From Flavobacteriales bacterium (GTDB lineage Bacteria; Bacteroidota; Bacteroidia; Palsa-965): a stretch of 64,000 nt of DNA. Positions 46,673 through 53,189 of the stretch are shown one piece after another. A program made the position numbers and the translations under genes. Every line of letters begins with the position of its first letter. The first letter of the stretch is position 1. The notes below the pieces were generated by a model. That model ran no database searches and was not told the origin of the DNA. It saw only the letters and a program-made list of their open reading frames with translations. The DNA is taken from the NCBI GenBank assembly GCA_040377305.1, contig JBEIPA010000023.1, positions 1 to 64,000 on the forward strand, in the 5' to 3' direction.

Positions 46673-46784
46673 GAGATGTGATGGATTGCGATAAATTTAC
46701 CGGTGAAAATACTCATTTATTCGGGCTGCAAACAGTGCATTCTTCCCGATGGCGATGAGGTATTACCAAAGGACGATTTCAAGG

Positions 46785-48188
46785 ATGAAATACAATCAAC
46801 CTTCACCAGCTGATGTTGAAGCACTCAAAGCGATTTGTGGTGCTGAACATGTGTTTGTAGACGAAGAATCGCTGGAGAAATACGGTCAGGATGAAACGGA
46901 AGACTTGTTGTACAAACCTGCTGCTGTTGTGCGTCCGTTGAATGCGGAACAGATCAGCAAAGTGGTGCTGCTGTGCAATGAGAAGTTGATTGCACTAACG
47001 CCACGTGGAGCAGGAACCGGACTGAGTGGGGGAGCGCTTCCCGTTTTCGGTGGCATTGTTTTGTCGATGGAGAAGTTCAATCGCATTCTGGAAATCGATG
47101 AGCGGAATTTGCAGGCTACTGTTGAGCCCGGTGTAATCAACGAAGTATTTCAGGAGGCCGTGCGGGAGAAAGGATTGTTTTATCCGCCCGATCCGGCTTC
47201 GAAGGGAAGTTGTTTTCTCGGAGGTAACATTGCACACAGTTCCGGTGGACCGAAAGCGGTGAAGTATGGAACCACGCGTGATTATGTATTGAATCTCGAA
47301 ATGGTTCTGCCCACCGGTGAAATCATCTGGACCGGCGCGAATGTGCTGAAGTATTCCACCGGATACAATCTCACACATCTCATGATTGGCAGTGAAGGAA
47401 CACTCGGAATTATCACGAAGATTGTTTTCCGTTTGATTCCATATCCGAAGAATAATCTGGTGATGCTGGTTCCGTTCAATTCTGCCGAGAAAGCCTGTGA
47501 AGCCGTGAGTGCCGTATTTCGTGCTGGAATTACTCCATCCGGAATGGAATTCATGGAGCGTGATGCCATTGATTGGGTAAGAAATTTCGCGGAAAATATC
47601 AAAGTAGTTGTGGGTGATGACGTTCAGGCTCACTTGCTCATCGAAGTCGACGGGAATGATATGGACGCGTTGTACATTGATGCTGAAAAAATAAACTCCG
47701 TCGTTTCTCAATACGAATGCGGTGAAGTTCTTTTCGCAGATACAGCCGATCAGAAAGACATGATCTGGAAAATGCGTCGTAAAGTTGCAGAAGCGGTTAA
47801 GTCGAACAGTGTTTATAAAGAAGAAGACACAGTTGTTCCGCGGGCAGAATTACCGGCTTTACTCAAAGGGGTGAAAGCGATAGGAGCCAAGTACGGATTC
47901 AAGTCGGTCTGTTACGGCCACGCCGGAGATGGAAATCTGCACGTCAACATCATCAAAGGAGAATTGAGTGATGAATTCTGGAATGCGGAATTGCCGAAAG
48001 GCGTTACGGAAATCTTCGAGTTGTGCGTCAAGCTCGGTGGAACTATCTCTGGTGAGCACGGAATCGGTTTAGTTCAACAACCTTACATTCCAATTGCGAT
48101 TGACGCGAAGCGTGTGGAGCTGATGCGTGGAATGAAAGAGTTGTTTGATCCGAAGATGATTTTGAATCCGGGGAAGATCTTTTATTAA
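46785..48188 (+). CDS. FAD-linked oxidase (GlcD / D-lactate dehydrogenase-like)
   Basis: PRGAGTGLSGG, YPPDPAS, GSEGTLG, GHAGDGNLH, SGEHGIG, LNPGK. Confidence 0.93.
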   Translation: MKYNQPSPADVEALKAICGAEHVFVDEESLEKYGQDETEDLLYKPAAVVRPLNAEQISKVVLLCNEKLIALTPRGAGTGLSGGALPVFGGIVLSMEKFNRILEIDERNLQATVEPGVINEVFQEAVREKGLFYPPDPASKGSCFLGGNIAHSSGGPKAVKYGTTRDYVLNLEMVLPTGEIIWTGANVLKYSTGYNLTHLMIGSEGTLGIITKIVFRLIPYPKNNLVMLVPFNSAEKACEAVSAVFRAGITPSGMEFMERDAIDWVRNFAENIKVVVGDDVQAHLLIEVDGNDMDALYIDAEKINSVVSQYECGEVLFADTADQKDMIWKMRRKVAEAVKSNSVYKEEDTVVPRAELPALLKGVKAIGAKYGFKSVCYGHAGDGNLHVNIIKGELSDEFWNAELPKGVTEIFELCVKLGGTISGEHGIGLVQQPYIPIAIDAKRVELMRGMKELFDPKMILNPGKIFY

Positions 48189-48242: not shown

Positions 48243-49649
48243 TCACTTGCTCACTGGCATATGAAGCGCAAATGCAACTACAGATTCAGAAGGTGGATTT
48301 GAAGTAAAAAAGTTTACCTTTTCACTCATCTGAACTTTCAATATACCATCCGTTGGGTTTAAATTCTGATTGGTGAAAAGTCCTGCCAGCCGTTGATCCA
48401 GAGATCCTGGCAGTCTACTGACTTTAAACATCAGTTCATTTATGTCGAATTCTGCTCTGGAAAAAATAATTGCAAGATTTTCCTGACTACAGTTTGCGCA
48501 GATTTTCATACTAACGCCATTCCCACTTGCCGGATCCTGATGTGGCACTACAAAAGTATTAGTGAGATCTCGATCCATTAATGGATTTGTAACCTGACCC
48601 AACAAATCATTGAAAGGATAAACGGGCTCGCAGGTACCGTCATTATTTAAAGCAAAAACGTAAACATAACAGCTTGTCGTTATATGCATTCTAAAGAAAT
48701 CACCAGAATGCATTGGTGCTTCAAAATTGGTTGTTTTCACTTCGACTGGTTGAACATGACCGCTTACAAAATCATCATACTCCACGGTTAAACGCGATGC
48801 ACCGATGGTCAATGAAACTGGGACCACTTGACTGTTGGAATACTTCATAAGCTGAAAGCTTCCACTCAACGGGCAACTCAACGTAGATTTCCCAACTCTG
48901 ATTTGGTCAGACCCAACGTAGTAGTGAGTTGGCAAAGGTTGAATAGTGGTCGTTGTTTGAATTGGTAAGCTTACTGGAGCACTAATTCTGGTATTAACCG
49001 GGATAGGCAACTGAACAAGGCTGTTCCACGGTTTCATATGTAGTTGATTGGCGAATAAAGTATTAATACTCGCATTGAGTATACTGAGGTTTTCAAACTG
49101 GTTATGTTCATTCCATGTTTTAATGATATTGACAATCGCGAGCGTGACTTCGAAACCCATCTTGATCATTTCCGGATCAACTGGTCTTTGGTTAAGCTGG
49201 ATGCGATCTGTAACAGGTTTCAGGTTCGTCTCGTAAGCTTCAATAGCTCCTATATAACCAAACGCATATTTCTTTGCAAAATACGTAGAGGAGTCTACGG
49301 ACGATTTCATGCGTTTGAGAGAATCAAGGCAAAGCAGGTCAGCTTTAATCATGTCGACCCATGCATTAAATTTTTGTGAAGTGATTTCGTATCCATTCCT
49401 CAGGGCAAGCCTATCTTCTGCACTCACCTTGTCATTATTTCCAAACTCCGATATCTGTCTTTCTATTCCAGGTTTAAGTGTGTCTCTGTAACCCACAATT
49501 TTGGGTAAATTGTTAACGATAATGATAACGTCCTCAAACGTCACTTTTTTGCCAATAGGTTTTGCTTTGGCTGGATTTGTAAAACAAAAGATAACTCCCG
49601 AAATGACTATCGAAATAAGTAGGAGGAAAGTGGTTTGTTTGATTTTCAT
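48243..49649 (-). CDS. Exported protein with C-terminal DUF4384-like domain
   Basis: Signal peptide; helical N-terminal part; GDFFRMHI..CYVYVFALNNDGT..VYP..ENLAIIFSR pattern typical of DUF4384. Confidence 0.7.
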   Translation of the reverse strand: MKIKQTTFLLLISIVISGVIFCFTNPAKAKPIGKKVTFEDVIIIVNNLPKIVGYRDTLKPGIERQISEFGNNDKVSAEDRLALRNGYEITSQKFNAWVDMIKADLLCLDSLKRMKSSVDSSTYFAKKYAFGYIGAIEAYETNLKPVTDRIQLNQRPVDPEMIKMGFEVTLAIVNIIKTWNEHNQFENLSILNASINTLFANQLHMKPWNSLVQLPIPVNTRISAPVSLPIQTTTTIQPLPTHYYVGSDQIRVGKSTLSCPLSGSFQLMKYSNSQVVPVSLTIGASRLTVEYDDFVSGHVQPVEVKTTNFEAPMHSGDFFRMHITTSCYVYVFALNNDGTCEPVYPFNDLLGQVTNPLMDRDLTNTFVVPHQDPASGNGVSMKICANCSQENLAIIFSRAEFDINELMFKVSRLPGSLDQRLAGLFTNQNLNPTDGILKVQMSEKVNFFTSNPPSESVVAFALHMPVSK

Positions 49650-49654
49650 ACACT

Positions 49655-52162
49655 TTATTTTTTTGTGGGTAATACAAATAGGTTAATCGGATCGTATGAA
49701 TTTCTTCGTGATGATCCGGACTTCTGTTTTCGCGACGACAGGTAGAACACGCCATCCCGGCAATAAAAAGATAGTTCATCGGTATCAAGAATTTCATTTT
49801 TTCGGATAAAATCTGGAGAAAGAGTATCTCGTCCCGCAGAACTATGCGGTAGTTCTTTATTTCCAAACGCCATTAACAATGTCCGCGCTAAAATTCCATT
49901 TTGCAAGCCGGTATCATCAGCCGCGAGTTCATTGGATGAACATGAGGAAATAGTTAAACAGGATGGGTTAATATATCCCGTTGACACCATATTCTCCTGT
50001 ATTGCTGTTTTAATATCAACTTCTGCTGCTTTCGAGTTTAATGCCGTTCCCGAGAAACATGCATCCAAAAGTATAACGGAATTGCAGCCTTTTTGATTGA
50101 TCTCACTCAACAAACGATCGTACGTTATACCAGTCAACTCTGCGCTATTAGCAATGCAATCGTGGGTAATCATACAAAATGCAGACTTTCCTGTTACGGG
50201 ATCATACATTGGTTTACCATGTCCTGAAAAGAAAAAAACTATAACATCATTCGCTTCACATTCTAATTCCCGTATTGCTTTCAGGATACCATTGGTAGTA
50301 GCCTGCGAATCTGTCAGAAGAGTTGTATAAACGTTATCCCAAAGTCTTTGTCCAGATGGTAATAATTCCTGCCTTCCAAAGGCGCTGTCAATTTGCCATG
50401 CATCTTTACTTGCAAAACGTAAATCACGAAAACTATTATCTCGATATTGGTTGATACCTACTGAGATTACAAATAAATTTCGCGTGCTGTCTGGAGGTTG
50501 TAAAAAATGATTTCGTCTATAATCAATTTGCACTTGACGACTCTCTACTACATTGCCACTATTAAATGTAACCAACAACTTTAGTTTGTTCATGTTGGTT
50601 TGCAATTTAACAAAGGCATAAACATCCACATAACCTTCACCATTTAACGAACTCCAACTCAAGCTATCTCTAGTTTGATACTCAACTGTGAGCTTGCTGT
50701 TATCTATAGGTACAATTGCAACTGATTTTATTTCTTCAGTAGTGTATATCCGAGCGACCAGCGAAAATTCGGGTACATCACTCGTGGCAGTTAATGAAGA
50801 GGGATTTAGCCATTTAATCGTGGCGGTTTCGTGTTCAATTGTATTATTCGGTGCTAGGTGATCAAGTAGGTCTTGCTGATAAGTACCTGTAACGATAAAC
50901 TCAGGCAACGGATCCTCATTAATCTCAAACACTAGTTTAAGGTTAGTAGGTTCATCGGTCAATGGCACATCGATCTTCACGGTTTTTGAGCGTTTTACTT
51001 TCTTTCCCAATCGCGAATTGATCTGGCAGGGCTTATCATTAACCGATCCCGCAATATCTTCGTTCGCGTCGATATTATCAATTGTGCCGGTTATACTAAG
51101 TGTTTTTACGCCGCCTTCAATTGTAATGTATGTTGAATCCAAACTAAAAGAAGGACAGCCGGTATAACCTGCCTCATAATAAGGAAGAAGGGAGAAAAAA
51201 CTTCGATATGATTTTCCGCCAACAACGCAATTCATATGAAAAGCACAAGTATCGAACAAGTCATCGTCCATGATAAAATAGAAATTCTCCTGAATAGGGC
51301 TGAATTCAATTTTTGGCGCGAAACTCATGTGGTCACAACCAATCTCCCATTTTCCTAGAACATATCTCCCGTTGAAATTAAATGTTGGCGTGAAATATTT
51401 GTTAAAGTGCATGAAGCACCCTAGTGAAGATTGACTTGGGAGAAACGAAAAAAATAAAGGTTTGTTCTGATAAAATTTGACTTCAATTGAGTAAGTAGCA
51501 ACTTTTGCATTACGCCGAATGGCAAATGCTGGAGTACAATTGAATGGGCGCATAGTACGTTCAGAATAATTCAAATCGCAATTCCCATTCAACGTGTTGT
51601 AACCATCTAAAATAGTATCACGATAATCGGCCGAGATATGAACATTGATATCTGAAATGTTGTCATTGTTTAAGTCATAAAATATATCGTAATGACCCTC
51701 CGCTACGATTTCATTTACACCAAATAAGAATATCTTCTTTCCAAAAAGTTCTCGTGCTCCAGGACTCTCAGCCTTAATTGAGAGCTCAACTACGCTTTTG
51801 ATTGCATCTATTTTGTGATCCGTTGCTTTGTAATCAAAACTAAGAATAGTTTCTTCATTGATTTTATCAATTGACTTCGCCCTAGTTCCCCAGCGTCGAT
51901 CCCAGAATACCGGATGCCACGTGTTGCTATTGCTTATAACCCATTCTGAGGCAGACGTGTTGAGGTTTAACACAGCGCGATCATCATAGTGCAAGGCATA
52001 TGAGTTAGTGGAATCAAGAATACAACCCTTCGGCAAATATGAATCGTCTGAATTAACGATCGTCTTCTTTACCGAAGTCTTTATCTGGGAAGAATTGATT
52101 TGTGCATTGACAATGTTAACAAATACAAGTGCAAGCACGGTTGCTGCAGTTCGCATTCTCAT
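49655..52162 (-). CDS. Secreted caspase-family (peptidase C14) protein
   Basis: Signal peptide; FVISVGINQY..LRFASKDA, VFFFSGHG (catalytic His), ILLDACFSG (catalytic Cys); TATATTTG -7 box at 52188-52195. Confidence 0.9.
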   Translation of the reverse strand: MRMRTAATVLALVFVNIVNAQINSSQIKTSVKKTIVNSDDSYLPKGCILDSTNSYALHYDDRAVLNLNTSASEWVISNSNTWHPVFWDRRWGTRAKSIDKINEETILSFDYKATDHKIDAIKSVVELSIKAESPGARELFGKKIFLFGVNEIVAEGHYDIFYDLNNDNISDINVHISADYRDTILDGYNTLNGNCDLNYSERTMRPFNCTPAFAIRRNAKVATYSIEVKFYQNKPLFFSFLPSQSSLGCFMHFNKYFTPTFNFNGRYVLGKWEIGCDHMSFAPKIEFSPIQENFYFIMDDDLFDTCAFHMNCVVGGKSYRSFFSLLPYYEAGYTGCPSFSLDSTYITIEGGVKTLSITGTIDNIDANEDIAGSVNDKPCQINSRLGKKVKRSKTVKIDVPLTDEPTNLKLVFEINEDPLPEFIVTGTYQQDLLDHLAPNNTIEHETATIKWLNPSSLTATSDVPEFSLVARIYTTEEIKSVAIVPIDNSKLTVEYQTRDSLSWSSLNGEGYVDVYAFVKLQTNMNKLKLLVTFNSGNVVESRQVQIDYRRNHFLQPPDSTRNLFVISVGINQYRDNSFRDLRFASKDAWQIDSAFGRQELLPSGQRLWDNVYTTLLTDSQATTNGILKAIRELECEANDVIVFFFSGHGKPMYDPVTGKSAFCMITHDCIANSAELTGITYDRLLSEINQKGCNSVILLDACFSGTALNSKAAEVDIKTAIQENMVSTGYINPSCLTISSCSSNELAADDTGLQNGILARTLLMAFGNKELPHSSAGRDTLSPDFIRKNEILDTDELSFYCRDGVFYLSSRKQKSGSSRRNSYDPINLFVLPTKK

Positions 52163-52523: not shown

Positions 52524-53189
52524 ATGAAAATTACCCAACTCACCATGTCCGCTCCCGATCCGGCAGAACTAAAAAAGTTCTATTGGGCTGAACTCGGTTT
52601 CGATGAAATTGAAGCAGCCACCGATAGCGATGGATTTTCGTTTCAATGCGGACATACCCGTGTAAATTTCGTCCCTGGCGATCGCGATGCGAAGTATCAT
52701 TTTGCATTCAATATTCATCCCGATAAATTACCTGATGCAATTGAATGGCTGCAGGCCAAGAAAATTGAGTTGGTTCACAGTTCAGAACATAAAGGATTTC
52801 TCATCGATTTTCCGAACTGGTGGGCAAAGTCGGTTTACTTCTATGATGCCGCAGGAAATATTGTTGAGCTCATCGCGCGCGGTGGACTCGGTCCTGCAGG
52901 AAATACACCTAAGTTTTCTGCGCATTCCATTATTGGTGTAAGTGAAATCGGAATTGTGACTGAGGATGTGGCATACTTCCGCGAGTGGTTGAATATCACA
53001 CACGGAGTGCCGCCTTTTTCGCGTCAGCAAAACACGGATGACTTTTCTGCAATGGGCGACGATCACGGATTGTTGCTGCTCGTGAAGACTGGTCGTAAAT
53101 GGTTGATGGGAAATTTCGACTCGAAGCATTTTCCGCTGGCGATAGAAGGGACAACGGAGGGAAGAGAAGTGAAGTTGATTCTTCCTTAA
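52524..53189 (+). CDS. VOC/glyoxalase-family protein
   Basis: YHFAFNI, SVYFYDAAGNIVELIAR, SEIGIV, GDDHGLLLLV. Confidence 0.88.
   Translation: MKITQLTMSAPDPAELKKFYWAELGFDEIEAATDSDGFSFQCGHTRVNFVPGDRDAKYHFAFNIHPDKLPDAIEWLQAKKIELVHSSEHKGFLIDFPNWWAKSVYFYDAAGNIVELIARGGLGPAGNTPKFSAHSIIGVSEIGIVTEDVAYFREWLNITHGVPPFSRQQNTDDFSAMGDDHGLLLLVKTGRKWLMGNFDSKHFPLAIEGTTEGREVKLILP

What the first reader, a model, noticed from the sequence alone, without database searches (positions are those of the whole stretch)
48777..50698. Shared S[K/R]LTVEY motif in both the protease and its partner, conserved at protein but not DNA level
Seen: the caspase has ..PIDN-SKLTVEY-Q (50678-50698) and the partner has ..TIGA-SRLTVEY-D (48777-48797). 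The codons are agc aag ctc aca gtt gag tat versus tcg cgt tta acc gtg gag tat, so this is not a recent DNA duplication. In each protein the motif lies shortly N-terminal of the C-terminal domain (C14 or DUF4384-like). Inference: a common recognition or cleavage site (P1 = K/R, P' = LTVEY) for autoprocessing and substrate processing, or a strand-exchange docking peptide.
Basis: partly seen in the sequence, partly recalled or inferred. Interest (0 to 1): 0.8.

Follow-up and report, generated by a model that had tools for sequence, protein, structure and literature searches.

The report
Caspase and partner share loop motif
A likely secreted bacterial caspase-like protease and the protein encoded next to it share a seven-residue motif that, as in related gene pairs whose motifs match within the pair, likely marks where the enzyme cuts its partner and possibly itself; no cutting has been shown.

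Summary
The match is real: SKLTVEY (protease 489-495) and SRLTVEY (partner 285-291) are the only two S[KR]LTVEY in the genome's ORFs. Alone it is weak (1-9% for proteins this size). Context rescues it. The partner's copy lies in an inserted, predicted beta-hairpin of its DUF4384-like domain, where 39 of 45 family members carry [KR]-x-hydrophobic-x-hydrophobic. In other loci, caspase loops and partner sites match within the pair (22 clusters, window left out, z about 3; controls -1.2 to 0.9). Given that site, such a match in the neighbour is expected 0.0025 times. The protease keeps the His-Cys dyad and acidic S1 residues, and has two more NS[KR] at motif-bearing loops. This pair is a shifted variant: K/R sits directly before Leu. 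Against: the protease's K490 aligns with the ordinary Ig 'NGK' turn, eight residues before the family's motif column; no close protease orthologue was found; nothing shows cleavage. Best reading (0.55): an acquired two-gene cassette in which an Arg/Lys caspase cuts the partner hairpin after R286. The scan already noted this kind of system on other DNA (8 notes); my searches found it in no paper. Closest precedents: Csx29/Csx30, AtMC4.

The parts
49655..52162 (-). Caspase-like protease, 835 aa: likely signal peptide, unassigned N-terminal region, two Ig-like domains, C14 domain
   Evidence: PF00656 E 1.8e-11, over cut-off; no Pfam hit for the N-terminal 420 aa; signal peptide judged by eye and by a crude rule
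50867..51145 (-). First Ig-like domain (about aa 340-432)
   Evidence: weak match to a profile of Ig domains from other loci, conditional E 0.003; hhalign probability only 1.3%
51008..51019 (-). NSRL (aa 382-385): second S[KR]L site of the protease, aligned with the family's motif column in the Ig C-E loop; candidate self-cleavage after R384
   Evidence: function inferred
50513..50830 (-). Second Ig-like domain (about aa 445-550), directly before the C14 domain
   Evidence: lead only; conditional E 0.0009
50678..50698 (-). SKLTVEY (aa 489-495), the protease copy; K490 aligns with the Ig C-C' turn, LTVEY with the following edge strand
49658..50479 (-). C14 domain with H648 and C702 and S1-type residues D587, S646, D700, D749
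50027..50038 (-). NSKA (aa 709-712) in the loop after the catalytic Cys; candidate self-cleavage after K711
   Evidence: function inferred
48243..49649 (-). Partner, 468 aa: likely signal peptide, helical bundle, flexible linker, DUF4384-like beta-sandwich
   Evidence: (model pLDDT 83.9)
49017..49544 (-). Partner N-terminal helical domain (aa 36-211), no Pfam family; also found as stand-alone proteins
48246..48875 (-). Partner DUF4384-like domain (aa 259-468), Ig-like sandwich
   Evidence: (PF14326 15.9 bits, under cut-off 27)
48720..48809 (-). Inserted predicted beta-hairpin (strands 281-292 and 299-310)
   Evidence: segment 54 aa against 31-36 in versions without the insert; pLDDT 80, 68, 81 per ten residues
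48777..48797 (-). SRLTVEY (aa 285-291), the partner copy; predicted cut after R286
   Evidence: (kept as SR/SK in both close homologues); cut inferred
46749..48188 (+). FAD-linked oxidase, left flank of the insertion (not part of the system)
52524..53189 (+). Glyoxalase-like gene, right flank of the insertion (not part of the system)

Best explanation
The two genes form an inserted cassette encoding a likely secreted Arg/Lys-type caspase-like protease and its likely dedicated substrate, and S-[K/R]-L likely marks the site this enzyme cuts. Shown: the motif copies, the catalytic and S1 residues, the position of the partner's copy in an insertion that carries a basic-led motif across the family, and matching of such motifs within other caspase/partner pairs. 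Predicted: the partner's copy is one strand of a protruding hairpin. Inferred: the protease binds the folded DUF4384-like domain and cuts R286|L287, loosening the sandwich and freeing or switching the N-terminal helical domain, as Csx29 cuts a hairpin in the C-terminal domain of Csx30; the protease's own S[KR] loops (R384, K490, K711) would act as self-processing or self-blocking sites, as K225 does in AtMC4. Whether K490 itself is one of them is the weakest step (about 0.45). The partner could equally be a bait-loop inhibitor that is cut and stays bound.
For: Position: hairpin segment 54 aa versus 31-36 without the insert; 39 of 45 family members have [KR]-x-h-x-h there, shuffles mean 11, max 21, and 32 of 45 have a second copy in a later loop, shuffles mean 7. 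Co-variation with the window left out: z 3.07, median p 0.003 over 22 clusters, z 2.93 on rerun; caspase core -1.16; shuffled loops 0.17 +/- 0.88; non-caspase neighbours 0.91 +/- 0.78, max 2.6 in 40 draws. Of 16 other loci with a motif-bearing hairpin and a caspase in the fetched region, 14 match in P1-P1'-P2', 1 partly, 1 not (read by eye; 8 clusters: 6, 1, 1). Window pair scores 31; next best caspase 18, next best partner 21. Conditional chance 0.0025. Three NS[KR] in the protease: 380 of 20,000 shuffles, 1 of 273 genome proteins of 700-1000 aa (post hoc). K directly before a hydrophobic residue, with K/R exchange between caspase and partner, in L021, L104, L105, L108, L115, and the window enzyme groups with these K-type enzymes (support 86). 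Acidic S1 residues kept. Precedent.
Against: K490 aligns with the common Ig 'NGK' turn; the family's motif column falls on T-R-D-S (R498) instead. The family register is [KR]-x-L; aligned on L-x-V the window's Ser, not its K/R, takes the P1 column. The window's partner clade has lost the second loop motif and has Pro after the basic residue at the third site. No close orthologue of the protease was found, so conservation of its copy is untested. About half of the 50 caspase-adjacent loci show no shared motif, and whole-protein matching is not significant (z 1.74). K/R concordance between the two partner loops (27 of 27) rests on 2 independent pairs, D/N (23 of 23) on 4, p 0.125. One partner clade of 8 mostly lacks the basic residue yet keeps the prime side. 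[KR]LTVE occurs in 3 other genome proteins. The tree placement has a long branch and no starred support. No cleavage data exist.
Confidence: 0.55

Rival explanations
1. The partner's hairpin is a true protease site, but the protease's SKLTVEY is a look-alike made of the Ig C-C' turn and an amphipathic edge strand; real self-cleavage is at R384, R498 or K711.
For: Alignment of K490 to the NGK turn and of R384 and R498 to the motif column; L-x-V-x-Y is a common Ig strand pattern; unconditional chance 1-9%.
Against: Given the partner's family-defined site, a 7-mer this close is expected 0.0025 times in 835 aa; the Ig alignment is weak and distorted at this point; other caspases carry the motif in this same C-E region.
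Confidence: 0.22
2. The motif is an uncut docking strand: both copies bind one groove (an Ig or DUF4384 edge, or the active site as pseudo-substrate), and protease and partner compete or swap strands.
For: Prime-side alternating hydrophobic pattern is better kept than P1: one clade drops K/R but keeps D-h-x-h; motifs also occur a few residues after the signal peptide in L058, L101, L109, where a cut would remove almost nothing; the copy is modelled as a strand.
Against: K versus R agrees between loops in 27 of 27 proteins (few independent events); motifs also sit in the post-Cys linker and in papain-type pro-regions (26 of 28 caspase-adjacent against 9 of 14 others carry K/R there), typical cut sites; S1 pocket intact.
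Confidence: 0.15
3. Both copies are coincidental in this pair: the family's site has decayed in this partner clade and the cassette no longer uses it.
For: Second and third sites are degenerate and the register is shifted in this clade; about 15 such matches exist among adjacent pairs in this genome.
Against: S[RK]LTVEYDD is intact in both homologues at 60-62% overall identity; the insert is kept; conditional chance is low.
Confidence: 0.08

Closest known systems
Csx29 (TPR-CHAT) and Csx30 of type III-E CRISPR-Cas
   Same: Caspase-fold protease beside a substrate with a helical N-terminal domain and a beta C-terminal domain, cut in a beta-hairpin/loop near the start of that domain (M427|K428); some Csx30 C-terminal domains are DUF4384 (10.1101/2022.08.17.504292 and PMC10028731, passages).
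   Different: Here a C14 enzyme with Ig domains and likely signal peptides, no TPR/CHAT hit and no Cas gene among the scanned flanks; predicted Arg/Lys P1; a sequence motif shared with the protease, whereas Csx30 cleavage depends on loop size and few single residues. Csx30 was not listed in the fold searches (inconclusive).
Type II metacaspase AtMC4 (self-inhibitory Lys225, substrate Propep1)
   Same: Own Lys inserted in an acidic S1 pocket (Asp at Cys-2, Ser at His-2), cut on activation, then a substrate cut after Arg (10.1101/2020.03.09.983940, passages); those pocket residues are kept here; profile hit E 1.8e-14.
   Different: No long linker domain here (K711 is 9 residues after C702); candidate sites also lie in Ig loops; calcium dependence untested.
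Orthocaspase MaOC1 of Microcystis
   Same: Bacterial C14 that self-processes, cuts after basic residues and cleaves a protein encoded next to it (PMC7935541, PMC5756287, passages).
   Different: Cytoplasmic, single-domain, antitoxin substrate with basic clusters; no shared extended motif reported in the passages read.
MALT1 paracaspase
   Same: Two Ig domains before an Arg-specific caspase domain (PMC4357240, passages); profile hit E 1.3e-12.
   Different: No death domain or C-terminal Ig3; homology of the Ig domains not tested.

Membership tests
Peptidase C14B (meta/ortho/paracaspase-like) | Caspase domain over Pfam cut-off | tested here: met
   PF00656 44.6 bits, cut-off 21.4; profile hits Yca1, AtMC4, MALT1, TbMCA2
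Peptidase C14B (meta/ortho/paracaspase-like) | His-Cys dyad | tested here: met
   H648 and C702, invariant columns
Peptidase C14B (meta/ortho/paracaspase-like) | Acidic S1 residues (helix-1 Asp, His-2 Ser, Cys-2 Asp) | tested here: met
   D587, S646, D700 by motif position; no structure of the protease
Peptidase C14B (meta/ortho/paracaspase-like) | Cleavage after Arg/Lys and self-processing | not testable with these tools
   needs enzyme assay
DUF4384 (PF14326) | Pfam gathering score 27 bits | tested here: not met
   15.9 bits, E 0.014; 4 of 45 family members at E <= 0.01; hence 'DUF4384-like'
DUF4384 (PF14326) | Same domain as the C-terminal domain of papain-type fusions and small partners in caspase loci | tested here: met
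   profile searches and alignment; Atlas lead 0.84
Craspase Csx29/Csx30 | TPR-CHAT protease | tested here: not met
   Pfam finds C14, no CHAT or TPR
Craspase Csx29/Csx30 | Encoded with Cas7-11 and a CRISPR array | tested here: not met
   immediate flanks are an oxidase and a glyoxalase-like gene; the wider window was not scanned for Cas families or arrays
Craspase Csx29/Csx30 | Csx30-type C-terminal fold | tested here: inconclusive
   not listed; whole two-domain model searched
Craspase Csx29/Csx30 | Anti-sigma function of the N-terminal domain | not tested
   no sigma factor seen among adjacent ORFs; likely signal peptide argues against
Type II metacaspase (AtMC4) | Long linker domain between p20 and p10 holding the inhibitory Lys | tested here: not met
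   post-Cys loop about 35 aa

The most novel reading that the evidence does not exclude
Exported bacterial caspase cassettes use a private, heritable cleavage code written both in the enzyme's loops and in a plug-in hairpin of DUF4384, a portable 'cut-here' module fused to different effectors (papain-type zymogens, a helical bundle). This pair has drifted to a new register (K/R directly before Leu) in both genes, and the cut releases a helical domain that acts on membranes, an extracellular counterpart of caspase-gasdermin systems. The membrane part rests only on an amphipathic helix preceded by a basic residue in 33 of 45 members and middling fold scores to alpha-pore-forming bundles (Z 7.6, tied with talin and chemoreceptor bundles).
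Probability: 0.12. Interest if true: 0.85.

Novelty: new variant of a known kind. Interest (0 to 1): 0.56.

Why it matters
Substrates and specificity of most bacterial caspase-like proteases are unknown, and DUF4384 has no assigned role. A site that can be read from the gene pair gives a direct test (one enzyme, one substrate, one predicted bond), and this pair's shifted register makes it a natural specificity-swap control against the R-G-L, R-N-L and K-D-I pairs. It would also extend the Csx30-type 'cut a hairpin of the C-terminal domain' logic beyond CRISPR to exported systems.

Tried and rejected
Recent DNA duplication: rejected. Exact-motif conservation: 3 of 45 only. Further substrates: none with the full motif; relaxed patterns give 3-4 other hits each in 2,903 genes, strand-like; one 7-mer scoring 31 elsewhere, in a SIR2-like protein judged by eye. 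Orthologues of the protease: none close (one hit each at 27-29%; 7 of 34 relatives, at most 38% on partial stretches; 0 of 200 stretches); one region search of the protein database could not be made. Genomic context of the two close partner homologues: not obtainable (searches found none; contig look-up closed). Partner not found in 34 relatives of the order (a later deep profile found only domain-level hits). Anchor-letter controls were dropped because they pick the same motif; the three neighbour controls were one draw repeated by a seed error and were redone. First fold with 3 sequences was useless (pLDDT 37.5). Foldseek: no hit at E <= 0.001; no solved relative by sequence. Sequencing runs: one DNA holder, possibly the source; no RNA holder listed. 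Papain pro-region K/R versus caspase adjacency was weak (26 of 28 against 9 of 14).
Full report
Observation. The minus strand holds an 835-aa ORF (49655-52162) followed 5 bases later by a 468-aa ORF (48243-49649). These are the only two S[KR]LTVEY in the genome's frames. Without context this is not rare: 132 of 1,500 shuffles give 6 of 7 identities, about 1% of size-matched proteins match under a stricter rule, and 15 of 1,337 adjacent non-paralogous pairs do, this one included.

Anatomy. The protease has a C14 domain over Pfam's cut-off, H648/C702, and D587, S646, D700, D749 at the positions that form the basic-residue pocket of AtMC4 and TbMCA2 (passages). Two Ig-like domains precede it (weak profile matches). 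The partner scores under the DUF4384 cut-off but belongs to a family (52 hits; 42 full-length ones among them plus the three close sequences make the 45 rows). A model from 102 sequences (pLDDT 83.9) shows a helical bundle (36-211), a loose linker and an Ig-like sandwich (259-468; best fold score filamin Z 8.2). The motif is in strand 281-292 of a long hairpin with 299-310. The pair is an insertion: GC 39% against 45%; its flanking genes lie under 300 bases apart in 12 of 17 published relatives in which both were found, one has 1.35 kb of other genes between them and four have them on different contigs. The unpublished genome G012 is left out of that count; it is among the 34 relatives in which the partner was not found.

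The partner site is a family feature. Both close homologues (60-62% identity) keep S[RK]LTVEYDD, one with K. The letters are not kept further out, but the position is: 39 of 45 members have [KR]-x-hydrophobic-x-hydrophobic in this segment and 32 of 45 a second copy in a later loop (shuffle means 11 and 7). Picking sites by the prime side only, 28 of 45 rows had both; P1 was K/K in 18, R/R in 9, other in 1, but this is only 2 independent tree events, and the D/N match at P1' 4 events (p 0.125). The segment is 54 residues here against 31-36 in versions without the insert.

Co-variation with the protease. I fetched 90 regions, mostly the best-scoring places, not a random sample; with the window, 87 held a DUF4384-like protein and 50 also a C14, in 23 clusters. 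Matching motifs stand out: TRGLKVV in both proteins of L055, TRNLV[IV]E in L057, TRNLI in L100, GKD[IV]D in L080, RNW in L109, SKF in L021. A permutation test on loop regions, window left out, gave z 3.07 (median p 0.003, range 0.001-0.038) and 2.93; controls gave -1.16 (caspase core), 0.17 (shuffled loops), 0.91 (other neighbours, max 2.6). The loop regions were chosen after seeing examples, whole-protein matching gave only z 1.74, and many loci share nothing. Conditional on the partner's family-defined hairpin, a match as close as the window's is expected 0.0025 times in 835 residues.

What is special here. The family register is [KR]-x-L; this pair has K/R directly before Leu. The same shift occurs in L021, L104, L105, L108 and L115, in caspase Ig loops and papain-type pro-regions, with K in the caspase and R in the partner in two of them. 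The window enzyme falls in a 13-row group of K-type enzymes, at support 86 on a long branch, and has Ser at His-2 like 11 of 13 enzymes I labelled K-type and 3 of 22 labelled R-type (hand labels, related clades). It has three NS[KR]: 382 in the first Ig loop, exactly on the family's motif column; 488 (the finding); 709 after the catalytic Cys.

Against. On a profile built without the window, K490 lines up with the ordinary NGK turn of the Ig domain and the motif column with R498, so part of the match may come from the fold. The partner's clade has lost the second site. No close protease orthologue was found, so the direct test, conservation of the protease copy, is open. One clade of 8 partners mostly lacks the basic residue, which fits docking or another protease. 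No complex or protease model was obtained.

Mechanism. Most likely (0.55) the enzyme engages the folded DUF4384-like domain and cuts the hairpin after R286, with its own S[KR] loops as self-processing or self-blocking sites. Rivals: the protease copy is a look-alike (0.22), an uncut docking strand (0.15), pure chance (0.08).

Known systems. Csx30 is cut by the caspase-like Csx29 in a hairpin of its C-terminal domain, and some such domains are DUF4384 (10.1101/2022.08.17.504292, passages; PMC10028731, passages); the supplementary figures that class these domains were not seen and may show whether that hairpin is homologous to this one. AtMC4 blocks itself with K225 (passages); MaOC1 cuts a neighbouring antitoxin (passages). 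The pair works like these but is a member of neither system. Searches for DUF4384 (7 papers), DUF4384 with caspase (4) and related terms (listings, plus passages of PMC7475262 and PMC4933709) showed no description of shared co-varying motifs; subscription papers are largely missing from that library. The scan itself has noted this kind of system on other DNA (8 notes), which I looked up after my own analysis had reached it; they are not independent support.

Verdict. Real feature, a register-shifted variant of a recurring caspase/DUF4384 shared-site system; mechanism plausible and directly testable, unproven. Interest 0.56.

Noticed in passing
G000:C30:116414-122419 (outside the window; L004, L005, L008): Three C14 genes together: a 781-aa caspase fused to a DUF4384-like domain, a 329-aa caspase and a divergent 607-aa one, with repeated R-G motifs in loops; a similar set in L022.
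   Followed up: no
L080:11164-15788: Caspase with a C-terminal FGE-sulfatase-like domain followed by an Avd-like small gene and a reverse transcriptase, suggesting a diversity-generating retroelement acting on a caspase; labels recalled from sequence motifs, not scanned.
   Followed up: no
P0027, P0028, P0040, P0042, P0043, P0047, P0051, P0056: A clade of the partner family in which most loop motifs have G or A in place of K/R but keep D-hydrophobic; may pair with a protease of other specificity.
   Followed up: partly
L030, L031, L032, L033, L035, L039: The partner's helical domain occurs alone as 195-222-aa proteins with likely signal peptides; in L033 beside a papain-type DUF4384-like fusion.
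   Followed up: partly
L021, L055-L057, L081-L110: Papain-type (C1) DUF4384-like fusions beside caspases carry a basic motif in the pro-region matching the locus class, suggesting a caspase-to-papain activation cascade.
   Followed up: partly
L021:9800-11989: One of two caspase genes ends after the catalytic His region; the rest lies in a separate downstream frame.
   Followed up: no
L141:1452-2803: The closest relative has two unrelated ORFs at the same site between oxidase and glyoxalase-like genes, so this may be an insertion hotspot.
   Followed up: partly
G000:C10:164095-165225: SIR2-like protein (judged by eye) with SRITIEY near its C-terminus, the only other 7-mer in the genome scoring as high against the partner motif; probably a strand look-alike.
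   Followed up: no
window 50843-52102: The protease's N-terminal 420 residues have no Pfam match and no homologue in the searches made; Cys- and aromatic-rich, possibly a sensing domain.
   Followed up: partly
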